This document shows, in pieces, positions 1 to 5,912 of a stretch of 10,802 bases of DNA (position 1 is the first letter of the stretch; each line of letters begins with the position of its first letter). The notes beneath the pieces are model-generated. The model was not told where the DNA came from, searched no databases, and was given only the letters and a program-made list of their open reading frames with translations. The position numbers were made by a program, and so were the translations under genes. Origin of the DNA: a virus (lineage: Duplodnaviria > Heunggongvirae > Uroviricota > Caudoviricetes); the IMG/VR virus record IMGVR_UViG_2698536392_000023, positions 1 to 10,802 of that record; one strand, 5' to 3'.

Positions 1-258
1 CAGAACCACAACAAAGTAATACTCCGGGGCTCTGGTGGCGCTGATTACTGTGCCTTCTCCACCTGTCGGCTTCACCACAACAGGTGTGCTCACATCACCT
101 TCTGCGACAATCGCCTGAATAAGTGCTGCGCCATCATCCGTATACGAAGAAAACGGCCCACCGTATGGTTGCCATCCTTCACGAATTTTTTGCGCAAGTG
201 CATCAGCAAGGTCTGACGGCGATGCCGCCCTGACCACATCGTAGTGTTTAAATGCCAT
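1..258 (-). CDS. 5' part of a CDS whose N-terminus is in the window (86 codons, continues past position 1); DUF1737-like N-terminus as recalled for prophage NanS-p/YjhS-type esterases
   Basis: ATG at 258-256 (minus) preceded by GGAGGA 5 nt upstream; reverse-complement translation MAFKHYDVVRAASPSDLADALAQKIREGWQPYGGPFSSYTDDGAALIQAIVAEGDVSTPVVVKPTGGEGTVISATRAPEYYFVVVL with no stop before the window edge. Absent from the ORF track, which holds only ORFs with a stop in the window; the track ORF 90..356 is a different frame. Family assignment is from memory. Confidence 0.6.
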   Translation of the reverse strand, partial: MAFKHYDVVRAASPSDLADALAQKIREGWQPYGGPFSSYTDDGAALIQAIVAEGDVSTPVVVKPTGGEGTVISATRAPEYYFVVVL

Positions 259-451
259 GAATCCTCCCGGCCGGGATAATATTGTGAGTAAAATGAGGAG
301 CGGGCTGAAATCCGGAAGTTACAGGACAATGGCAGAAGAGAGACAACAGCCCGCAATACGAAAAAGGCCGCGCTATTGCGCAGAGTGATTACTGTCGGAT
401 ATTATTCGCCAGCTGAAATATTACTTCACGTTTTGTTGTTTATTCCTTGCC

Positions 452-480
452 GCCCGCGTCTCCCTGCGCGGGCTTTTTTT
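452..480 (+). terminator. Rho-independent terminator-like hairpin (GCCCGCG-N8-CGCGGGC followed by T7), plus-strand orientation
   Basis: 7-bp GC-rich stem 452-458/467-473, 8-nt loop, T-run 474-480. Confidence 0.5.
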
Positions 481-491
481 GTCCATAAGAA

Positions 492-511
492 AGCCCCTCC
501 GGAGAGGGGCT
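492..511. other. 8-bp perfect inverted repeat AGCCCCTC-CGGA-GAGGGGCT; with the 452-480 hairpin forms a back-to-back hairpin pair
   Basis: Arms 492-499 and 504-511 are exact reverse complements; on the minus strand it is followed by TTCTTAT. Confidence 0.45.
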
Positions 512-707
512 GGAGAGTGGCGCTATGTGCCATTGCATGGTGCCGGGTGCCTCCCGGTGAATTCAGTACCAGCACCTGAATCCGCGATTATCCCATATAC
601 CTACTCGCTGATTGCCCCTCCGCACAGGGGGATTCACCATGCCAGTTTCTTTTAACAAACTCCCCGCAAACCAGACAACAGTCAACCGCCTGAATTGTGA
701 GACATTT

Positions 708-733
708 AAAAAAAAGGCCCGCAAAAGCGAGCC
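708..733 (-). terminator. Rho-independent terminator immediately after the tRNA cluster
   Basis: Minus-strand read GGCTCGC-TTTT-GCGGGCC followed by T8 (plus A-run 708-715); 7-bp stem with one G-U pair. Confidence 0.75.
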
Positions 734-747
734 AGGGAAAATAAGTG

Positions 748-824
748 TGGCGCGTTGTACTGGATTCGAACCAGTGACCGATTGCTTAGAAGGCAATTGC
801 TCTGTCCGGCTGAGCTAACAACGC
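748..824 (-). tRNA. tRNA-Arg, anticodon UCU (reads AGA)
   Basis: Reverse complement GCGTTGTTAGCTCAGCCGGACAGAGCAATTGCCTTCTAAGCAATCGGTCACTGGTTCGAATCCAGTACAACGCGCCA folds as a cloverleaf: perfect 7-bp acceptor stem, GCTC/GAGC D-stem, anticodon loop CTTCTAA, T-loop TTCGAAT, encoded CCA. Confidence 0.85.
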
Positions 825-837
825 ATGATGCATATAA

Positions 838-914
838 TGGACCGCCATCGGGGACTTGAACCCCGCGCAGCCAGCTTCGAAGGCTGGCGCTCTTTCCTGA
901 TGAGCTAATGGCGG
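838..914 (-). tRNA. tRNA-Arg, anticodon UCG (reads CGA)
   Basis: Reverse complement CCGCCATTAGCTCATCAGGAAAGAGCGCCAGCCTTCGAAGCTGGCTGCGCGGGGTTCAAGTCCCCGATGGCGGTCCA: 7-bp acceptor stem CCGCCAT/ATGGCGG, anticodon loop CTTCGAA, T-loop TTCAAGT, encoded CCA. The 5' nucleotide is C, which is unusual. Confidence 0.75.
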
Positions 915-921
915 TATGTGA

Positions 922-997
922 TGGTGGACCTTGCTGGATTTGAACCAGCGGCCTGGCGATTATGAGTCGCTCGCTCTCACCACTGAGCTAAAGGGCC
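922..997 (-). tRNA. ileZ: tRNA with anticodon CAU; body resembles the Ile2 (lysidine, ileX/ileZ-type) class rather than Met
   Basis: Reverse complement GGCCCTTTAGCTCAGTGGTGAGAGCGAGCGACTCATAATCGCCAGGCCGCTGGTTCAAATCCAGCAAGGTCCACCA; anticodon loop CTCATAA, T-loop TTCAAAT, encoded CCA. Acceptor position 3-70 is a C/T mismatch. Ile2 versus Met isotype is from recalled similarity and phage context. Confidence 0.75.
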
Positions 998-1032
998 GGG
1001 AGCAGAATAATAACGGTCCGTAATTAATTCCG

Positions 1033-1060
1033 CAATAAAAAACCCGCTCGGCGGCGGGTT
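1033..1060 (-). terminator. tR'-like intrinsic terminator downstream of the late promoter
   Basis: Minus-strand AACCCGC-CGCCGA-GCGGGTT followed by TTTTATT; sits about 45 nt downstream of the candidate -10. Confidence 0.65.
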
Positions 1061-1107
1061 GTAGAAACTCTTCTAATGTCAGGCATAAAAAGCCCATCGT
1101 TATGACG

Positions 1108-1135
1108 AATTTACCACAGATTCCGGAAAAATCAA
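1108..1135 (-). promoter_or_regulatory. pR'-like late promoter (Q-modified), sigma70-type
   Basis: Minus-strand TTGATT (plus 1130-1135), 16-nt spacer, TAAATT (plus 1108-1113), immediately downstream of the Q-like stop codon at 1141. Confidence 0.55.
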
Positions 1136-1140
1136 CCTTG

Positions 1141-1962
1141 TTACCTAGTTACCTTTTTTAACTGCCGCTCAGCCCATGCTTCTTCAATATCAAACCGGGT
1201 CACCAGCGCATCATAGAATTTCTTAACTGTTTTTTCCCATGACGCGCGTGTTATCTGGTTTGTCACCTCGCATATAGCATTAAATGCCTCCGTTGATGGT
1301 AGTCTTTTATAGCCACGACCACCACAACGCTGGCAGTCTCTGATAACAGGCATACCACGTTTTACCGACTCTTCACGGTAAAGGGCGACACCACGCCCAC
1401 GGCAATCCTTACAGGCGGTGTAAACCTCACCCTTTCCGCCACACTCCGGACAGGCAACTTTTACCACCTCCCTGACTTTTTTCCATTCTTCCCAGTAAGA
1501 CGGATACACACCTTTCGTACACTTTGCCCATACCGGCGGCTTACCATCCGGATACTGGACCTTGTTTGTAAAAACTACGCTTTCAATAAATTTTTCCCCA
1601 TAGCAACAAGGGCACTGCTTTTTACTCGCTGCGCTGCGGGCATAATCCTCAAAAGCGTACGAAGCCATAATGCGCATCACTAACGGTTTTATTTCTGCCG
1701 GAAGTTTTCTCAACGCCGCCACACGATCGCACCGACTGAGTGCATAATCTGCCAGTAATTCTGTTGCCCGCGCCCTGTCATTCATACTGATGCCCATTTT
1801 CCCCAGGAACGCAGAAAACCCCATCTCAGCCCGATTCTGTGTCATGCTCTGCGCGGCCATCACATCAGTGATACTCAGCGCATCTTTTGACGTTGAGGCC
1901 GATGCATCGGTCAGGCAAGGGGATTTTGGGGAGTAGTATTTCGGTAAATCTTCCAGTTTCAT
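1141..1962 (-). CDS. Q-like late antiterminator (273 aa) with three CxxCxGxG zinc-finger motifs
   Basis: Complete ORF; position directly upstream of the pR'/tR'/tRNA block and downstream of rusA; motifs CPECGGKG, CKDCRGRG, CQRCGGRG; start ATG overlaps the rusA stop (ATGA). Confidence 0.65.
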   Translation of the reverse strand: MKLEDLPKYYSPKSPCLTDASASTSKDALSITDVMAAQSMTQNRAEMGFSAFLGKMGISMNDRARATELLADYALSRCDRVAALRKLPAEIKPLVMRIMASYAFEDYARSAASKKQCPCCYGEKFIESVVFTNKVQYPDGKPPVWAKCTKGVYPSYWEEWKKVREVVKVACPECGGKGEVYTACKDCRGRGVALYREESVKRGMPVIRDCQRCGGRGYKRLPSTEAFNAICEVTNQITRASWEKTVKKFYDALVTRFDIEEAWAERQLKKVTR

Positions 1963-2333
1963 TTTTTGACCTGCCCTTCAAGCATTATGGGGTAAATCTT
2001 CACCCCCAGACGTCCACCAGATACTGGCTGAGCACGAACGATATTGATTTCATCAAACTGCTCATCGTCCATTAGCAACCCCGCATGCGTCAGCGCATCC
2101 AGCGGCGCTTTCAGAATATTGTCCAGGTCACGGCGGCGCTTATCCGGTGGCTCGGCAATAATCTTTATCGCCAGCCTTCCGGACAGGTTTAATTTCAGCC
2201 GCTGCTGGCGAACAATAAGTGCCACATCCCGGCGATAACGCTCACCGGCTTTTGATACAAAATATGTGCTGCCACGACGTCGCCAGTAGGTGTTCACCGT
2301 CGGCGGGTAAGGCAAAACAAACTCTATACGCAT
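1959..2333 (-). CDS. rusA: RusA-family Holliday junction resolvase (124 aa)
   Basis: Typical size; N-terminus LPYPPTVNTYWRR and the DKRRRDLDN acidic motif resemble RusA; SD AAGAGG 6 nt upstream of ATG at 2333. Confidence 0.85.
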   Translation of the reverse strand: MRIEFVLPYPPTVNTYWRRRGSTYFVSKAGERYRRDVALIVRQQRLKLNLSGRLAIKIIAEPPDKRRRDLDNILKAPLDALTHAGLLMDDEQFDEINIVRAQPVSGGRLGVKIYPIMLEGQVKK

Positions 2334-2345
2334 CAGTAACCTCTT

Positions 2346-2873
2346 TTACCCGAGCACGCCGGTTGCAAAGGCGTGATCAAGAAAACGAAAAATTAAATCA
2401 ACCTGGGAACCATGCTTTTCTTCGAACGCCAGTGGATCCGCATGAAGCTCGTTGTGATGCTCCCGACACAGCGGTAGCGTGAAAATATCGTGGGATTTTG
2501 TTCCCATTCCGCCCTGACCATGACCAATCAGATGATGAGGATCGTCCGCTGGCTTACCACAACACGCACACGGCTGTGTCTTTACCCAGCGTGTGTATTT
2601 CTCATTTACCCAGCGGCGACGTTTAGGTCGTTTCATGAAGGATTCCGGAGACTCCGGATCAACGGCAATGCTGACCACCGTCTTTTCCTGTGGTGGGTTC
2701 TGTTGCTGGTGGGTGTGAGGTGGTAGCGCAATATTTTTTGTGCGCTGCTTCAGTATGCTGGTGGCGGTCTGTTCTCCCGGTATGATGTCGCTTTCACGGT
2801 ATACGGAGCGGATTTTTTCCGCCGGTAATCCCAGAGAACAACGCGCTACTGCCTCAGGTAGTGCATCCACCAC
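2346..2873 (-). CDS. HNH-like zinc-finger protein, DUF968/YdfU-like C-terminal region (175 aa as drawn; start uncertain, may be the 3' part of a frameshifted longer gene)
   Basis: Motif CACCGKPADDPHHLIGHGQGGMGTKSHDIFTLPLCREHHNELH. ORF begins with GTG and has no recognisable SD; the same frame stays open upstream to 2954; 28-nt overlap with the upstream ORF. Confidence 0.55.
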   Translation of the reverse strand: MVDALPEAVARCSLGLPAEKIRSVYRESDIIPGEQTATSILKQRTKNIALPPHTHQQQNPPQEKTVVSIAVDPESPESFMKRPKRRRWVNEKYTRWVKTQPCACCGKPADDPHHLIGHGQGGMGTKSHDIFTLPLCREHHNELHADPLAFEEKHGSQVDLIFRFLDHAFATGVLG

Positions 2874-3448
2874 CTGATTGCAGGCCGCCCACAGGATAAT
2901 TCGGCCAGCGATAACTCCCTCTCCTGCGTGCCGCTTATTGCGTGACGGATGACGTCAATCATCCAGGCAACCAGATTCTGCTGAGCAAGTTGATCGAGTG
3001 ATTCTGATGTCTGGTCGCGCAGCTGGTTGTCACAGTGCCAGCACAACACCATCGCGCCGGTACCGTAACGGTGAATGACTGTTTCGCTGTGATGATAATC
3101 GCCGTGTGGCCACTGGCAGGATTTCACGTGACGTAATAACCAGTCAGACAGTGCACCAGCGCCGCCAGCTGCACGAATCACCCGCTCATCGCTGAAAAAT
3201 GGCAGCAGTGATTTATCTTCCGCCAGCGGCTGGCGAACAGTAGGAACCGCTCCAGATGGCAGCGCCCGCATGTTTTTCGGTTCCGGCTCCACCAGTATTC
3301 TGCCGTTATGGAATGCTGACATTGATTCACGGCCTGGCTTAACGATAACCAGACCGAGTTCCGGTACCAGAACAGGTCGAAGTAATACCCGCACATTACC
3401 TCCAGACGCGCTGACGGTAGCAGGCATGTGTCCGTGGCAGATGTGCAC
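2846..3448 (-). CDS. HNH-like motif protein (about 200 aa as drawn; start codon uncertain)
   Basis: Motif CQWPHGDYHHSETVIHRYGTGAMVLCWHCDNQL. ORF-track start is a GTG; first ATG is at 3427; overlaps neighbouring ORFs at both ends. Confidence 0.5.
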   Translation of the reverse strand: MHICHGHMPATVSASGGNVRVLLRPVLVPELGLVIVKPGRESMSAFHNGRILVEPEPKNMRALPSGAVPTVRQPLAEDKSLLPFFSDERVIRAAGGAGALSDWLLRHVKSCQWPHGDYHHSETVIHRYGTGAMVLCWHCDNQLRDQTSESLDQLAQQNLVAWMIDVIRHAISGTQERELSLAELSCGRPAIRWWMHYLRQ

Positions 3449-4253: not shown

Positions 4254-4409
4254 TTACTCCTCAGGTTCGTAAGCTGTGAAGACAGCGACCTCCGTCTGGC
4301 CGGTTCGGATTCGTACCTCGCAGAGGTCTTTCCTCGTTACCAGTGCCGTCACTATGACGGTAATACAGATGACGATCAGGGCGATTAACATCGCCTTTTG
4401 CTGCTTCAT
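4254..4409 (-). CDS. hokD: Hok/Gef-family type I toxin (51 aa), closest in my memory to HokD/RelF
   Basis: MKQQKAMLIALIVICITVIVTALVTRKDLCEVRIRTGQTEVAVFTAYEPEE; SD AAGGAG upstream of ATG at 4409. The ORF-track entry 4254..4466 is the same frame extended to an upstream ATG. Confidence 0.85.
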   Translation of the reverse strand: MKQQKAMLIALIVICITVIVTALVTRKDLCEVRIRTGQTEVAVFTAYEPEE

Positions 4410-4422
4410 AGCCTGCTTCTCC

Positions 4423-4451
4423 TTGCCTTTCGGCGCGTAAGAGGCTAACCT
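4423..4451 (+). promoter_or_regulatory. Candidate promoter for a sok-like antisense RNA
   Basis: Plus-strand TTGCCT (4423-4428), 17-nt spacer, TAACCT (4446-4451); predicted transcript runs antisense across the upstream in-frame ATG (4466) and its GAGG SD. Confidence 0.35.
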
Positions 4452-4584
4452 ACATGTGTCTAGCATGAAATTGGCCTCAGATTAATGTTAGGCGTCTTGC
4501 AGGACGCGTAATGTTAACTGGGGCTTTTCTCTGTCTGCCTTACGGTGGCATGCCCGAGGCAGACAGCCTCAAGCACCCGCAGCA

Positions 4585-4612
4585 ATTCTACTTAACTCTC
4601 GCTTTACCGCAA
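4585..4612 (-). promoter_or_regulatory. Candidate promoter of the hok mRNA
   Basis: Minus-strand TTGCGG (plus 4607-4612), 16-nt spacer, TAGAAT (plus 4585-4590); gives a leader of about 170 nt, typical for hok mRNAs. Confidence 0.4.
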
Positions 4613-4624
4613 ACCGTTTTTACC

Positions 4625-4646
4625 CGATATGGGAATTCCCATATCG
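4625..4646. repeat. 22-bp perfect palindrome CGATATGGGAATTCCCATATCG
   Basis: Exact reverse-complement symmetry; lies between the stop of the 34-aa ORF (4655) and the candidate hok -35. Confidence 0.9.
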
Positions 4647-4654
4647 TAATGAAT

Positions 4655-4759
4655 TCAGTTCCCTAGTCGATCCATCAAAAACACAACCAGGCAGTAAACG
4701 CCCACAACAGCAATAACAGCCAGCGCACCTTCCATTGCCAGTGAAATATCATCCGACAT
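4655..4759 (-). CDS. Small hydrophobic protein, 34 aa (MSDDISLAMEGALAVIAVVGVYCLVVFLMDRLGN), predicted single transmembrane helix
   Basis: ATG at 4759 with strong SD AAAGGAGGG 4-5 nt upstream; absent from the ORF track because it is under 60 aa. Confidence 0.5.
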   Translation of the reverse strand: MSDDISLAMEGALAVIAVVGVYCLVVFLMDRLGN

Positions 4760-4794
4760 ATTCCCTCCTTTGGTGTTAATCCCGGCGAACGTTT

Positions 4795-4878
4795 TTACCC
4801 CCACCGACAAATAACATATACTAAAAAATCAATAGCTATAGCAACGCCTGTAATTGCAAAGGCTTCAGGCCAGATCAT
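4795..4878 (-). CDS. Small hydrophobic protein, 27 aa (MIWPEAFAITGVAIAIDFLVYVICRWG)
   Basis: ATG at 4878 overlaps the stop of the DUF551 ORF (ATGA); SD GGAGG 8-12 nt upstream. Confidence 0.45.
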   Translation of the reverse strand: MIWPEAFAITGVAIAIDFLVYVICRWG

Positions 4879-5460
4879 TGGCGCACCTCCTGCGGCGGTT
4901 CTGGTAGCGGCATCCAGTCGGTTACATTGCGGCTCTGTGTTTCGAAAAATTCATCACCATTACGGACTACATCAAAAAACTCACCGTCTCGATATTGCGC
5001 ATAAAGAACGAATGCGCCATCACATAAAATAATTACGTGCTGACCATCATCCGGCATTCGCTCACTACAGCTTATCCAATCATCCAGAGTTACCGGATAG
5101 TTGGTTGACGTTTCCGAGATTTCCCGAAAATTATTGGTTGACGAACCCTTTTTTTTCCCGAAAGTTTCCAGCCTGAAGCATGGCGGCGCTGTCTGGCGGG
5201 GCAGCATATAGCGGCACGTATATTTCCGGTTCCTTATCAGCACCGGGTTGCTCTTCCAGTGAGAATGTCTTTCCGGTAAATCGATTCATATAAAGCACGG
5301 GCTCTGCTTCCAGCGAAGCCTGAGCAACAAGGGCCAGTGCTAAATCCAACTCAATTGCCTCGAGAGAATTTTTGAATGCTGTCTGTTTTACTGCAAATTT
5401 CATCGCCTTTACATTTTCACTAACATGACTGATTAACTGCTCTTTTGTAAAAGTGGTCAT
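4875..5460 (-). pseudogene. DUF551-domain phage protein split into two frames at an A8 (plus-strand T8) tract
   Basis: Frame A 5460..5131 (ATG at 5460, SD AAGGAG) ends ...REKKGFVNQ; frame B 5243..4875 reads ...FGKKKGSS... and carries the DUF551-like C-terminus (DDWISCSERMPDDG...WMPLPEPP). The frames switch at the T8 run 5149-5156. Confidence 0.6.
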
Positions 5461-5516
5461 CTCATTCTCCTTTGATGCGAATGCCAGCGACAATTGAAGC
5501 CTGATAGCTAATTCAC

Positions 5517-5912
5517 TCACAATACCGCCTCCTGAAAATTGCCCTGATAGAACGCCAGTACACGCAGCATAACTTCACTCTTCCGGCACTCGCCACAGAT
5601 TATGTTCTGTTGTCTGTCGTAGCGGCGTATTTCTCCGTCTGGTAACTTTCGAATCAATGTCTGGTCGGTTGTTTTCTCCGCTGCCTTACGCCATACGCGA
5701 TACACCTGTTCTGATGTAAAAACACCGTATTTACCGGGCATGTATAAATCGCCGCAAGCCAGTACATCCACAAGGCAACGTCTGACTGAATGCCAGCCTG
5801 CTCCCGTCGCTCTCTCCAGTTGTGATATCGTCATGCGTTCATTTTTGCGTACCAGCCCGATAATTCGGGCCTTCAGTTCTTCACGCTGTTCGTGTGTAAA
5901 AGGTTTCGCCAT
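5517..5912 (-). CDS. Hypothetical phage protein, 131 aa, possible winged-helix fold
   Basis: ATG at 5912 with GGAGG SD 7 nt upstream; segment TISQLERATGAGWHSVRRCL looks HTH-like. Confidence 0.6.
   Translation of the reverse strand: MAKPFTHEQREELKARIIGLVRKNERMTISQLERATGAGWHSVRRCLVDVLACGDLYMPGKYGVFTSEQVYRVWRKAAEKTTDQTLIRKLPDGEIRRYDRQQNIICGECRKSEVMLRVLAFYQGNFQEAVL

What the first reader, a model, noticed from the sequence alone, without database searches (positions are those of the whole stretch)
4655..4878. Two tandem micro-ORFs for single-helix hydrophobic peptides next to hok
Neither is in the ORF track because of size, yet both have strong Shine-Dalgarno sequences. The 27-aa ORF is translationally coupled (ATGA) to the DUF551 gene and the 34-aa ORF has AAAGGAGGG at ideal spacing. 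Both products are dominated by a hydrophobic helix, like type I toxins or small membrane regulators. With hok directly downstream this forms a cluster of three small membrane peptides. I cannot assign them to a known family from memory, which makes this my best candidate for uncharacterised function in the window.
Basis: inference. Interest (0 to 1): 0.6.

Follow-up and report, generated by a model that had tools for sequence, protein, structure and literature searches.

The report
Two conserved prophage membrane micro-genes beside hok
Two tiny genes (27 and 34 codons) next to the hok toxin gene of an E. coli prophage are real, conserved genes for single-helix membrane peptides; the 27-codon one was annotated as a gene in none of the 13 records inspected and lies in about 30% of complete E. 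coli genomes, but neither has a known function.

Summary
Both micro-ORFs exist as described on the minus strand of a Rac-like lambdoid prophage of Shiga-toxigenic E. coli. They sit between a frameshifted DUF551/Ea22-like gene and hokD.

ORF-A (4878..4795, 27 aa) belongs to a family seen in 168 fetched loci.
- It is nearly always 27 codons long, and its ATG always overlaps the upstream stop codon (ATGA).
- It follows at least six different upstream gene ends and precedes at least 15 downstream contexts.
- Hosts include Stx phages, P1-like phage-plasmids and a lytic phage.
- pN/pS is 0.24 in frame against about 1-1.9 in the other forward frames.
- It was a separate annotated gene in none of the 13 records inspected.
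- The window's own copy lies in a sublineage with relaxed constraint.

ORF-B (4759..4655, 34 aa) is RefSeq hypothetical protein WP_001278450.1.
- It is XECs145 in a published Sakai RIBOseq study.
- A 29-aa sister form has a retapamulin initiation signal in BL21.
- In 157 of 162 instances it lies at a fixed distance upstream of the hok mRNA leader.

Neither ORF matches Pfam, PHROGs, NCBIfam, PADLOC or PDB entries. Neither shows type I toxin architecture. The best reading is that they are accessory single-pass inner-membrane microproteins. Their molecular function remains inferred.

The parts
4795..4878 (-). ORF-A: 27-codon micro-gene (MIWPEAFAITGVAIAIDFLVYVICRWG) for a predicted single-pass membrane peptide.
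   Evidence: Searches show the ORF. The family has 168 instances of constant length. pN/pS is 0.24 in frame. The hydropathy of the best 19-residue window is 2.3.
4875..4878 (-). ATGA junction: the ORF-A start codon overlaps the TGA stop of the upstream DUF551-frame ORF.
   Evidence: One search shows the overlap. It is conserved in 168 of 168 family members behind at least six different upstream gene ends. The second codon is always ANC or ACT.
4886..4891 (-). Shine-Dalgarno AGGAGG for ORF-A, 7 nt from the ATG, lying inside the last codons of the upstream gene.
   Evidence: A GGAGG-like motif at this position is kept in most, though not all, junction classes.
4655..4759 (-). ORF-B: 34-codon micro-gene (MSDDISLAMEGALAVIAVVGVYCLVVFLMDRLGN), identical to RefSeq WP_001278450.1 and to XECs145.
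   Evidence: Sequence. PGAP CDS. Family members. pN/pS is 0.21. RIBOseq data from PMC5597208. AF2 models a single helix.
4763..4770 (-). Shine-Dalgarno AAGGAGGG for ORF-B.
   Evidence: It is conserved in all 73 copies of the 34-aa type, five of which use a GTG start.
4790..4800 (-). Left copy of the 11-nt direct repeat GGGTAAAAACG. It overlaps the last codon and stop of ORF-A.
   Evidence: two matches in the window against 0.01 expected by chance.
4615..4625 (-). Right copy of the direct repeat GGGTAAAAACG. With the left copy it brackets a 175-bp ORF-B cassette that 933W-type loci lack.
   Evidence: together with the comparison to 933W.
4625..4646 (.). Perfect 22-bp palindrome CGATATGGGAATTCCCATATCG between the ORF-B stop and the hok promoter.
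   Evidence: One search finds the palindrome. It folds as a 9-bp hairpin. It is not followed by a T-run, so it is not a canonical terminator.
4585..4612 (-). Inferred hok promoter: -35 TTGCGG at about 4612-4607 and -10 TAGAAT at 4590-4585.
   Evidence: Read from the sequence and by analogy with the 5' end of the R1 hok mRNA (own knowledge). The same motif follows ORF-A directly in 933W.
4404..4578 (-). hok mRNA leader and sok region.
   Evidence: Rfam RF01794, 116.9 bits, E = 8e-28.
4254..4466 (-). mok (70 aa) overlapping hokD (4409..4254, 51 aa).
   Evidence: One search lists the ORF. PGAP annotates hokD in the identical locus L001.
4875..5520 (-). Upstream DUF551/Ea22-like gene, frameshifted at an A8 run (5156..5149).
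   Evidence: The gene is split into two ORFs. PGAP flags it as 'frameshifted'. Relatives carry A7. DUF551 (PF04448) is present in intact homologues.

Best explanation
Both ORFs are genuine protein-coding micro-genes of the accessory (nin/ea-type) region of lambdoid phages. Each encodes a single-pass inner-membrane microprotein.

ORF-A is a portable 84-nt gene unit. It always sits at the 3' end of a member of the mosaic Ea22/EaA/DUF551 gene family, with its ATG overlapping that gene's TGA. It is probably translated by ribosomes that terminate and re-initiate at the ATGA, helped by a Shine-Dalgarno motif inside the last upstream codons. The conserved ends (MxWPEAF...G...VYxICRWG) suggest an N-out/C-in helix that binds a specific membrane partner.

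ORF-B is a separate family with 34-aa and 29-aa forms. It has its own strong Shine-Dalgarno site and travels as an add-on immediately upstream of the hokD-type promoter.

Both are expressed as part of the early-right operon, and ORF-B is also translated in lysogen cultures. They most likely act as small accessory membrane modulators that are not strongly toxic, rather than as type I toxins.

What is shown: the ORFs exist, are conserved, are under purifying selection, keep their synteny and are hydrophobic. ORF-B also has published translation signals. What is inferred: membrane insertion, topology, the coupling mechanism, and the modulator function.
For: ORF-A:
- There are 168 instances, 160 of them 27 codons long (seven carry a TGG-to-TGA change giving 25 aa; the eighth is the doubtful 65-aa L089 ORF). 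All have the ATGA overlap behind at least six distinct upstream 3' ends and ahead of at least 15 downstream contexts.
- There are 39 DNA alleles. Variable sites by codon position are 12/11/24. pN/pS is 0.24 in frame against 0.95 and 1.88 in the other forward frames.
- One peptide allele is encoded by 24 different DNA sequences.
- The first base of the second codon is fixed, while the middle base takes all four values.
- Of five copies inspected from a DNA-based 'spread' sample of E. coli genomes, four are intact and one is a deletion remnant.
- The family is found in 1634 of 5426 complete E. coli genomes, in 180 plasmids, mostly ~90-100 kb and non-mobilizable, and in the lytic phage Av-05.

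ORF-B:
- Within-subfamily pN/pS is 0.21 and 0.30, and dN/dS between subfamilies is 0.34.
- The Shine-Dalgarno site and start codon are conserved in both subfamilies.
- RIBOseq in Sakai gave RCV 4.35 and coverage 0.99 in LB (PMC5597208).
- Retapamulin profiling in BL21 gave 13 initiation-site counts for the 29-aa form (PMC11188072).

Both ORFs:
- Hydropathy of the best 19-residue window is 2.1-2.7.
- AlphaFold2 models ORF-B as a single helix.
- There is no unusual RNA structure (z = -0.32) and no Rfam family over the ORFs.
Against: - There is no direct protein detection, localisation or phenotype for either peptide.
- ORF-A has no translation data. The Sakai study only tested ORFs of at least 30 aa.
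- The ORF-A and ORF-B loci were retrieved by peptide patterns and ranked by protein similarity, which biases dN downward.
- The RIBOseq signal for XECs145 comes from a multi-copy prophage region and from an ORF model with an upstream alternative start.
- The BL21 initiation-site count is low (13).
- The window's own ORF-A allele has Asp17 in mid-helix. Its sublineage shows pN/pS 0.66 and includes nonsense and C-terminal variants. Its upstream partner gene is frameshifted, so coupling cannot operate normally here.
- No minus-strand promoter was found near the ORFs.
Confidence: 0.6

Rival explanations
1. ORF-B is a functional accessory of the prophage hokD locus. It could be a membrane peptide that modulates Hok (neutralising or assisting it). 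Alternatively, its translation and hairpin could condition read-through transcripts that enter hok from the early operon.
For: - In 157 of 162 ORF-B instances of both subfamilies, the hok leader motif follows at a fixed distance: 46 nt for the 29-aa type and 80 nt for the 34-aa type.
- The linkage has survived about 35% DNA divergence of ORF-B.
- The same arrangement is seen in Tritos, mEp460, HannyBb and BL21.
- ORF-B has no relatives outside this context.
Against: - Identical Hok alleles occur with the 34-aa form, with the 29-aa form and with no ORF-B, so there is no covariation.
- Many hok loci lack ORF-B, including 933W, R1 and the K-12 chromosome.
- hok has its own promoter downstream of ORF-B.
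- The linkage could simply reflect recombination anchored in the highly conserved hok module.
Confidence: 0.12
2. One or both peptides are type I-toxin-like membrane poisons. They would be kept silent by an antisense RNA or by mRNA structure.
For: They are small hydrophobic single-helix peptides in a prophage next to a bona fide type I toxin. Two weak antisense promoter-like sites lie on the + strand at 4735-4762 and 4794-4822.
Against: - There is no Hok_Gef or other toxin family match.
- Rfam finds an RNA only over hok/sok.
- The antisense sites score 9 of 12 and fall in sequence that the 29-aa subfamily lacks.
- The Shine-Dalgarno sites are strong and unpaired, and the folding energy is ordinary.
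- ORF-B is ribosome-covered in growing lysogen cultures (PMC5597208) and is present in up to 7 copies per genome. That argues against strong toxicity.
Confidence: 0.08
3. In this particular window the ORFs, especially ORF-A, are decaying remnants with no present function, carried along in a defective prophage.
For: - The upstream DUF551 gene and the DUF968 gene are frameshifted.
- The window's ORF-A allele carries N2I, M14I and A17D against 2 synonymous changes.
- Its sublineage has pN/pS 0.66, with variable sites spread evenly over the three codon positions and with a nonsense allele.
Against: - The ORF-A reading frame, start codon, Shine-Dalgarno site and stop codon are intact here.
- The same allele is present in 33 loci.
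- The 34-aa ORF-B subfamily still shows pN/pS 0.21 and is translated in Sakai.
Confidence: 0.12
4. ORF-A is not a separate protein. It would be a transmembrane tail added to a fraction of the upstream Ea22/DUF551 protein by -1 ribosomal frameshifting near the stop codon.
For: ORF-A lies in the -1 frame of the upstream gene, and that frame is open for about 16-18 codons upstream in some alleles (P0017, P0019). A Shine-Dalgarno-like motif lies just upstream of the stop codon.
Against: - There is no slippery heptamer at the junction.
- An ATG with a well-spaced Shine-Dalgarno site is conserved in every member.
- The junction sequence differs between upstream gene classes.
Confidence: 0.02

Closest known systems
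XECs145 (Hucker et al. 2017, PMC5597208) / RefSeq WP_001278450.1 / cluster Escherichia_98807 (Fesenko et al. 2024, PMC11188072)
   Same: These entries are ORF-B itself. XECs145 is a 54-aa model with an upstream start, and WP_001278450.1 is the 34-aa form. Escherichia_98807 is the 29-aa sister form. All are predicted inner-membrane peptides with ribosome-profiling signals.
   Different: They are catalogue entries only. No function is given, no start site was defined in Sakai, and the strict synteny with hok is not mentioned in the passages and tables read here.
Hok/Gef type I toxins (Pfam Hok_Gef), the immediate neighbour
   Same: Small, prophage-borne, with one N-terminal transmembrane helix and a Cys in the helix.
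   Different: ORF-A and ORF-B show no sequence or profile match. They lack the periplasmic domain and have no mok-like leader ORF, sok antisense RNA or fold-back mRNA. Their Shine-Dalgarno sites are exposed.
Small single-pass regulatory membrane proteins of E. coli (for example MgrB, AcrZ, MgtS, PmrR, KdpF, CydX; own knowledge)
   Same: They are 25-50 aa with one helix and conserved interface residues, were missed by gene callers, and act by binding larger membrane proteins. This is the best working analogy for mechanism.
   Different: Those are chromosomal genes with identified partners. ORF-A and ORF-B are phage-borne, have no detectable homology to them, and have no known partner.
Translationally coupled gene pairs with ATGA overlap (termination-reinitiation; Huber et al. 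2019, cited within PMC11188072)
   Same: ORF-A shows the canonical 4-nt stop/start overlap in every copy.
   Different: Here the downstream partner is a 27-codon gene that stays constant while the upstream gene is exchanged. Coupling itself was not tested.
Ea22 / exo-xis accessory proteins of lambda and Stx phages (PMC10834534)
   Same: ORF-A's upstream partners belong to this mosaic family (Ead_Ea22 and DUF551 domains), which is reported to be pro-lysogenic.
   Different: Phage lambda itself has no ORF-A after ea22. The passages of the Ea22 paper retrieved here mention no membrane component (the word 'membrane' does not occur in it).

Membership tests
Type I toxin (Hok/Gef-like) | Sequence or profile membership in a known toxin family | tested here: not met
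   Pfam, NCBIfam, PHROGs and PADLOC gave no significant hit for either peptide.
Type I toxin (Hok/Gef-like) | A cis-encoded antisense RNA antitoxin overlapping the toxin mRNA | tested here: not met
   Rfam hits only the hok/sok region at 4578..4404. The antisense promoter-like sites are weak (9 of 12) and lie in sequence absent from the 29-aa subfamily. Transcriptome data were not examined.
Type I toxin (Hok/Gef-like) | Translation masked by mRNA structure or a leader ORF | tested here: not met
   Folding of 4640-4900 is ordinary (z = -0.32), and the ORF-B Shine-Dalgarno site is largely unpaired.
Type I toxin (Hok/Gef-like) | Toxicity and membrane depolarisation on expression | not testable with these tools
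   This needs inducible expression. Indirect evidence against strong toxicity: ORF-B is ribosome-covered in growing Sakai cultures.
Bona fide small membrane protein gene | Intact ORF with a start codon and Shine-Dalgarno site conserved among relatives | tested here: met
   ORF-A. ORF-B.
Bona fide small membrane protein gene | Purifying selection in the proposed frame but not in the others | tested here: met
   ORF-A gives 0.24 in frame against 0.95 and 1.88. ORF-B gives 0.21 and 0.30. Caveats: the loci were retrieved by peptide pattern, and the window's ORF-A sublineage gives 0.66.
Bona fide small membrane protein gene | A hydrophobic segment long enough to span the membrane | tested here: met
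   The best 19-residue window has mean Kyte-Doolittle hydropathy of 2.1-2.7. AF2 models ORF-B as a single helix.
Bona fide small membrane protein gene | Experimental evidence of translation | tested here: inconclusive
   ORF-B has a published RIBOseq signal (RCV 4.35), and its 29-aa form has 13 retapamulin initiation-site counts. No data were found for ORF-A.
Termination-reinitiation coupled pair | Overlapping stop and start codons (ATGA) | tested here: met
   168 of 168 instances. The second codon is always ANC or ACT.
Termination-reinitiation coupled pair | Downstream translation depends on upstream translation | not testable with these tools
   This needs reporter fusions with the upstream stop moved or upstream translation abolished. 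In this window the upstream gene is frameshifted.
hok/sok locus component | Constant presence within hok loci | tested here: not met
   ORF-B nearly always has hok downstream (157 of 162). However, hok loci exist without ORF-B (933W, K-12), and Hok alleles do not covary with it.

The most novel reading that the evidence does not exclude
The two peptides would be the membrane arms of known prophage modules.

ORF-B would be a dedicated third protein component of prophage hokD-type loci, modulating Hok in the membrane or gating its expression during induction.

ORF-A would be the conserved membrane partner of the pro-lysogenic Ea22/DUF551 protein family. That would link these early proteins to an envelope target and so to the lysis-lysogeny decision of Shiga-toxin phages.
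Probability: 0.12. Interest if true: 0.75.

Novelty: new member of a known kind. Interest (0 to 1): 0.45.

Why it matters
ORF-A lies in about 30% of complete E. coli genomes, and 933W and the other Stx-converting phages inspected carry it. It is also in P1-like phage-plasmids. It was a separate annotated gene in none of the 13 records inspected here. At 84 nt it is below the usual 90-nt minimum of gene callers (own knowledge of Prodigal defaults). It always accompanies the Ea22/DUF551 family, whose pro-lysogenic mechanism is unknown, so it is a concrete and cheap candidate for a missing partner.

ORF-B shows that prophage hok loci commonly carry a second conserved membrane peptide. This had been catalogued, but I found no discussion of it. 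Both ORFs are directly testable by tagging and deletion in Stx phage models.

Tried and rejected
- Family searches: Pfam, PHROGs, NCBIfam, PADLOC and PDB sequence searches gave nothing significant for either peptide.
- Remote homology: an HMMER profile search of 1.84 billion representative proteins with ORF-B found only 22 members of the same narrow family.
It was rerun with stop-to-stop extensions.
- K-12 orthologues: local tblastn against the Qin and Rac prophages found none. CPS-53 yfdS-yfdT has no ORF-A. Phage lambda ea22 has none either.
- Literature: searches for the peptide strings and the RefSeq accession gave nothing. The EDL933 translatome supplements had no hit. One preprint could not be opened.
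- Structured RNA element: considered and rejected.
- Conserved antisense promoter: considered and rejected.
- Palindrome as an intrinsic terminator: rejected because there is no T-run.
- Hok/ORF-B covariation: uninformative, because Hok is nearly invariant.
- ORF-B as a Hok paralogue: by-eye alignment gives only generic transmembrane similarity. It was not pursued.

Full report
**Observation**

On the minus strand, ORF-A runs 4878..4795 and encodes MIWPEAFAITGVAIAIDFLVYVICRWG. ORF-B runs 4759..4655 and encodes MSDDISLAMEGALAVIAVVGVYCLVVFLMDRLGN. The ORF-A ATG overlaps the TGA of the upstream reading frame (ATGA at 4878-4875). AGGAGG lies 7 nt upstream of that ATG. ORF-B is preceded by AAGGAGGG with a 4-nt spacer.

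The window is 100% identical over this stretch to a Rac-like lambdoid prophage of STEC strain 90-3040. Gene order there is racR, ydaS/ydaT-like genes, replication genes, DUF1627, DUF977, DUF551 (frameshifted), a 34-aa hypothetical protein, hokD, a YgiW-like gene, DUF968 (frameshifted), rusA, Q and tRNAs. So ORF-B is annotated by PGAP as WP_001278450.1, and ORF-A is not. The Rfam sok/hok model places the hok locus at 4578..4404.

**ORF-A is a real, conserved and unannotated micro-gene**

tblastn against phage genomes found homologues at 52-63% identity in 92 records. In every case inspected, the annotated upstream CDS ends exactly 4 nt into the homologue. These cases were 933W, Stx2a_WGPS2, the lytic Vequintavirinae phage Av-05, the P1-like phage vB_EcoM-813R1, Stx2 II and PhiR12_1. 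No separate gene is annotated in any of them.

Pattern-based retrieval from viral and genome collections gave 168 instances. The findings were:
- 160 are 27 codons long. Seven carry a TGG-to-TGA change that gives 25 aa; the eighth is the doubtful 65-aa L089 ORF.
- All 168 have the ATGA overlap.
- The upstream gene end falls into at least six classes: ...PEPPQEV[RN]Q*, ...EDVLR*, ...IEQKVNQ*, ...KKKGMNQ* and others.
- What follows the stop codon falls into at least 15 classes. These include the ORF-B cassette, the hok promoter directly, hairpin-plus-T-run terminators, and other genes.
- Homology therefore begins at the Shine-Dalgarno site and ends at the stop codon.

Selection tests gave these results:
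- Among 39 DNA alleles, variable sites by codon position are 12/11/24.
- pN/pS is 0.24 in frame against 0.95 and 1.88 in the other forward frames.
- One peptide allele is encoded by 24 different DNA sequences.
- The second residue is T, I, N or S, encoded by ANC or ACT. The first base is fixed by the upstream TGA, while the middle base takes all four values.

Five copies inspected from a DNA-based 'spread' sample of E. coli genomes gave four intact copies and one deletion remnant. The family occurs in 1634 of 5426 complete E. coli genomes. It also occurs in 180 plasmids of E. coli, Salmonella and Klebsiella, mostly about 90-100 kb and non-mobilizable.

The upstream partners are members of the mosaic Ea22/EaA/DUF551 family. 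Invariant residues in the five-sequence alignment A1 are W3, P4, A6, F7, G11, V20, C24, R25 and W26; alleles fetched later vary at F7, V20, R25 and W26. The charge distribution (MxWPE- ... -CRW+) suggests an N-out/C-in orientation (inference).

**A caveat for this window's ORF-A copy**

The local ORF-A allele differs from its nearest relatives by N2I, M14I and A17D, plus two synonymous changes. The sublineage that lies next to the ORF-B cassette has pN/pS 0.66. It includes W26stop, CRCG and CRWE alleles. All other alleles together give 0.14.

The upstream gene is also frameshifted here, at an A8 run where relatives have A7. The family is therefore under selection, but this particular copy may be drifting.

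**ORF-B is a narrow family, already catalogued and tied to hok**

An exhaustive HMMER search of 1.84 billion representatives returned only 22. There are two subfamilies:
- a 34-aa form, MSDDISLAMEGALAV...;
- a 29-aa form, MLVLKCALAIAAVMAIYCLAVVLMDRLSD, which uses a GTG start with GGAGG 5 nt upstream.

An intermediate sequence (P0077) links the two. pN/pS is 0.21 and 0.30 within the subfamilies, and dN/dS between them is 0.34.

In 157 of 162 instances the hok mRNA leader motif follows the stop codon at a fixed distance. This is 46 nt for the 29-aa type and 80 nt for the 34-aa type. The arrangement holds in phages Tritos, mEp460 and HannyBb and in BL21(DE3). The reverse does not hold. In 933W, ORF-A abuts the hok promoter directly, and identical Hok alleles occur with either ORF-B type or with none.

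In the window, ORF-B lies in a 175-bp cassette bracketed by the 11-nt direct repeat GGGTAAAAACG. The cassette ends in a perfect 22-bp palindrome. Relative to 933W-type loci it looks like an insertion between ORF-A's stop codon and the hok -35 region.

**Published expression evidence**

Hucker et al. 2017 (PMC5597208) list XECs145 at Sakai 1550761-1550922. It contains ORF-B and was classed as 'real' and inner membrane. Values in LB were RNA RPKM 79.1, RIBOseq RPKM 346.1, RCV 4.35 and coverage 0.99. RCV was 1.14 in BHI.

Fesenko et al. 2024 (PMC11188072, Table S4) list the 29-aa form in BL21 with 13 retapamulin initiation-site counts, 38 ribosome-protected-fragment counts and a cluster dN/dS of 0.46.

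ORF-A was below the 30-aa cut-off of the Sakai study. It was not found in any text searched.

**What the ORFs are not**

- Neither peptide gave a significant hit in Pfam, PHROGs, NCBIfam, PADLOC or PDB.
- The RNA across both ORFs folds no better than shuffled sequence (z = -0.32), and the ORF-B Shine-Dalgarno site is open.
- No Rfam RNA overlaps the ORFs.
- The only antisense promoter-like sites are weak and not conserved.
- The palindrome lacks a T-run.

The type I toxin reading is therefore unsupported. Toxicity itself could not be tested.

**Mechanism**

The best-supported reading is that both ORFs encode single-pass inner-membrane microproteins expressed from the early-right operon. ORF-A would be translated by termination-reinitiation at the ATGA. 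ORF-B would be translated from its own strong Shine-Dalgarno site. Both would act by binding a membrane partner, as chromosomal small membrane proteins do (analogy from own knowledge).

The coding status is well supported: about 0.85-0.9 for the families and lower for this window's ORF-A copy. The function is inference. Rival readings are: a functional link between ORF-B and Hok (0.12), toxin-like peptides (0.08), local decay (0.12), and a frameshift fusion of ORF-A to the upstream protein (0.02).

**Novelty**

ORF-B is already in RefSeq and in two high-throughput catalogues, without a function and with no mention of the hok synteny in the parts read here. ORF-A appears to be unreported, and it was not annotated as a gene in any record inspected here. 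Both are new members of a known kind, namely phage and prophage small membrane proteins. They are not a new kind of system.

Noticed in passing
window 5149-5156 (minus strand), within 4875-5520: The DUF551/Ea22-like gene upstream of ORF-A is split by an A8 run where relatives have A7. This could be a simple frameshift mutation or a slippage-prone tract.
   Followed up: partly
window 2346-3448 (minus strand): The DUF968 gene is also split into two overlapping ORFs, and PGAP flags it as 'frameshifted' in the identical locus. This is a second sign that the prophage is decaying.
   Followed up: no
window 4625-4646: A perfect 22-bp palindrome, CGATATGGGAATTCCCATATCG with a central EcoRI site, lies directly after the ORF-B stop codon. 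It has no T-run, and its role is unknown. It could be a recombination scar, a protein-binding site or an RNA hairpin.
   Followed up: partly
window 4790-4800 and 4615-4625: The 11-nt direct repeat GGGTAAAAACG brackets a 175-bp ORF-B cassette that is absent from 933W-type loci. The arrangement looks like an insertion with duplicated junction sequence.
   Followed up: partly
L089 1501-1698 (Pseudobdellovibrionaceae MAG CAZFPB010000007.1): A 65-aa ORF begins MTWPEAFAIVGVAF, matching E. coli ORF-A alleles at 13 of 14 residues. It also overlaps an upstream ORF by ATGA and lies in a high-GC, prophage-like early region. Whether it is a distant relative or a chance match is unresolved.
   Followed up: partly
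L088 (NZ_JPLE01000323.1, 431-bp contig labelled Xanthomonas pisi): The contig carries a 933W-type ORF-A plus the hok leader. It is probably E. coli phage contamination in that assembly.
   Followed up: no
PP818812.1 (Actinobacillus phage vB_Apl-pPE4), 12687-13610: A record labelled as an Actinobacillus phage holds a region 94% identical to this E. coli lambdoid hok neighbourhood. Its host assignment looks doubtful.
   Followed up: no
L256 (BL21(DE3) NC_012971.2 1591437-1591524): The 29-aa ORF-B form overlaps the 3' end of the annotated DUF977 gene by about 40 nt and is not annotated in BL21.
   Followed up: partly
L260 5512-6179 (K-12 CPS-53 yfdS-yfdT): The YfdT N-terminus (MTTFTNKELIKEIKERISSLEVRDDIERRAYEIAL) is the same module as the N-termini of ORF-A's upstream partners. 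It follows the DUF551 protein YfdS, but no ORF-A is present there.
   Followed up: partly
window 748-997 (minus strand): A tRNA cluster lies downstream of the Q antiterminator gene: one tRNA with a CAT anticodon (called Met by ARAGORN, Ile by PGAP) and two tRNA-Arg genes. This is typical of Stx-type lambdoid prophages.
   Followed up: no
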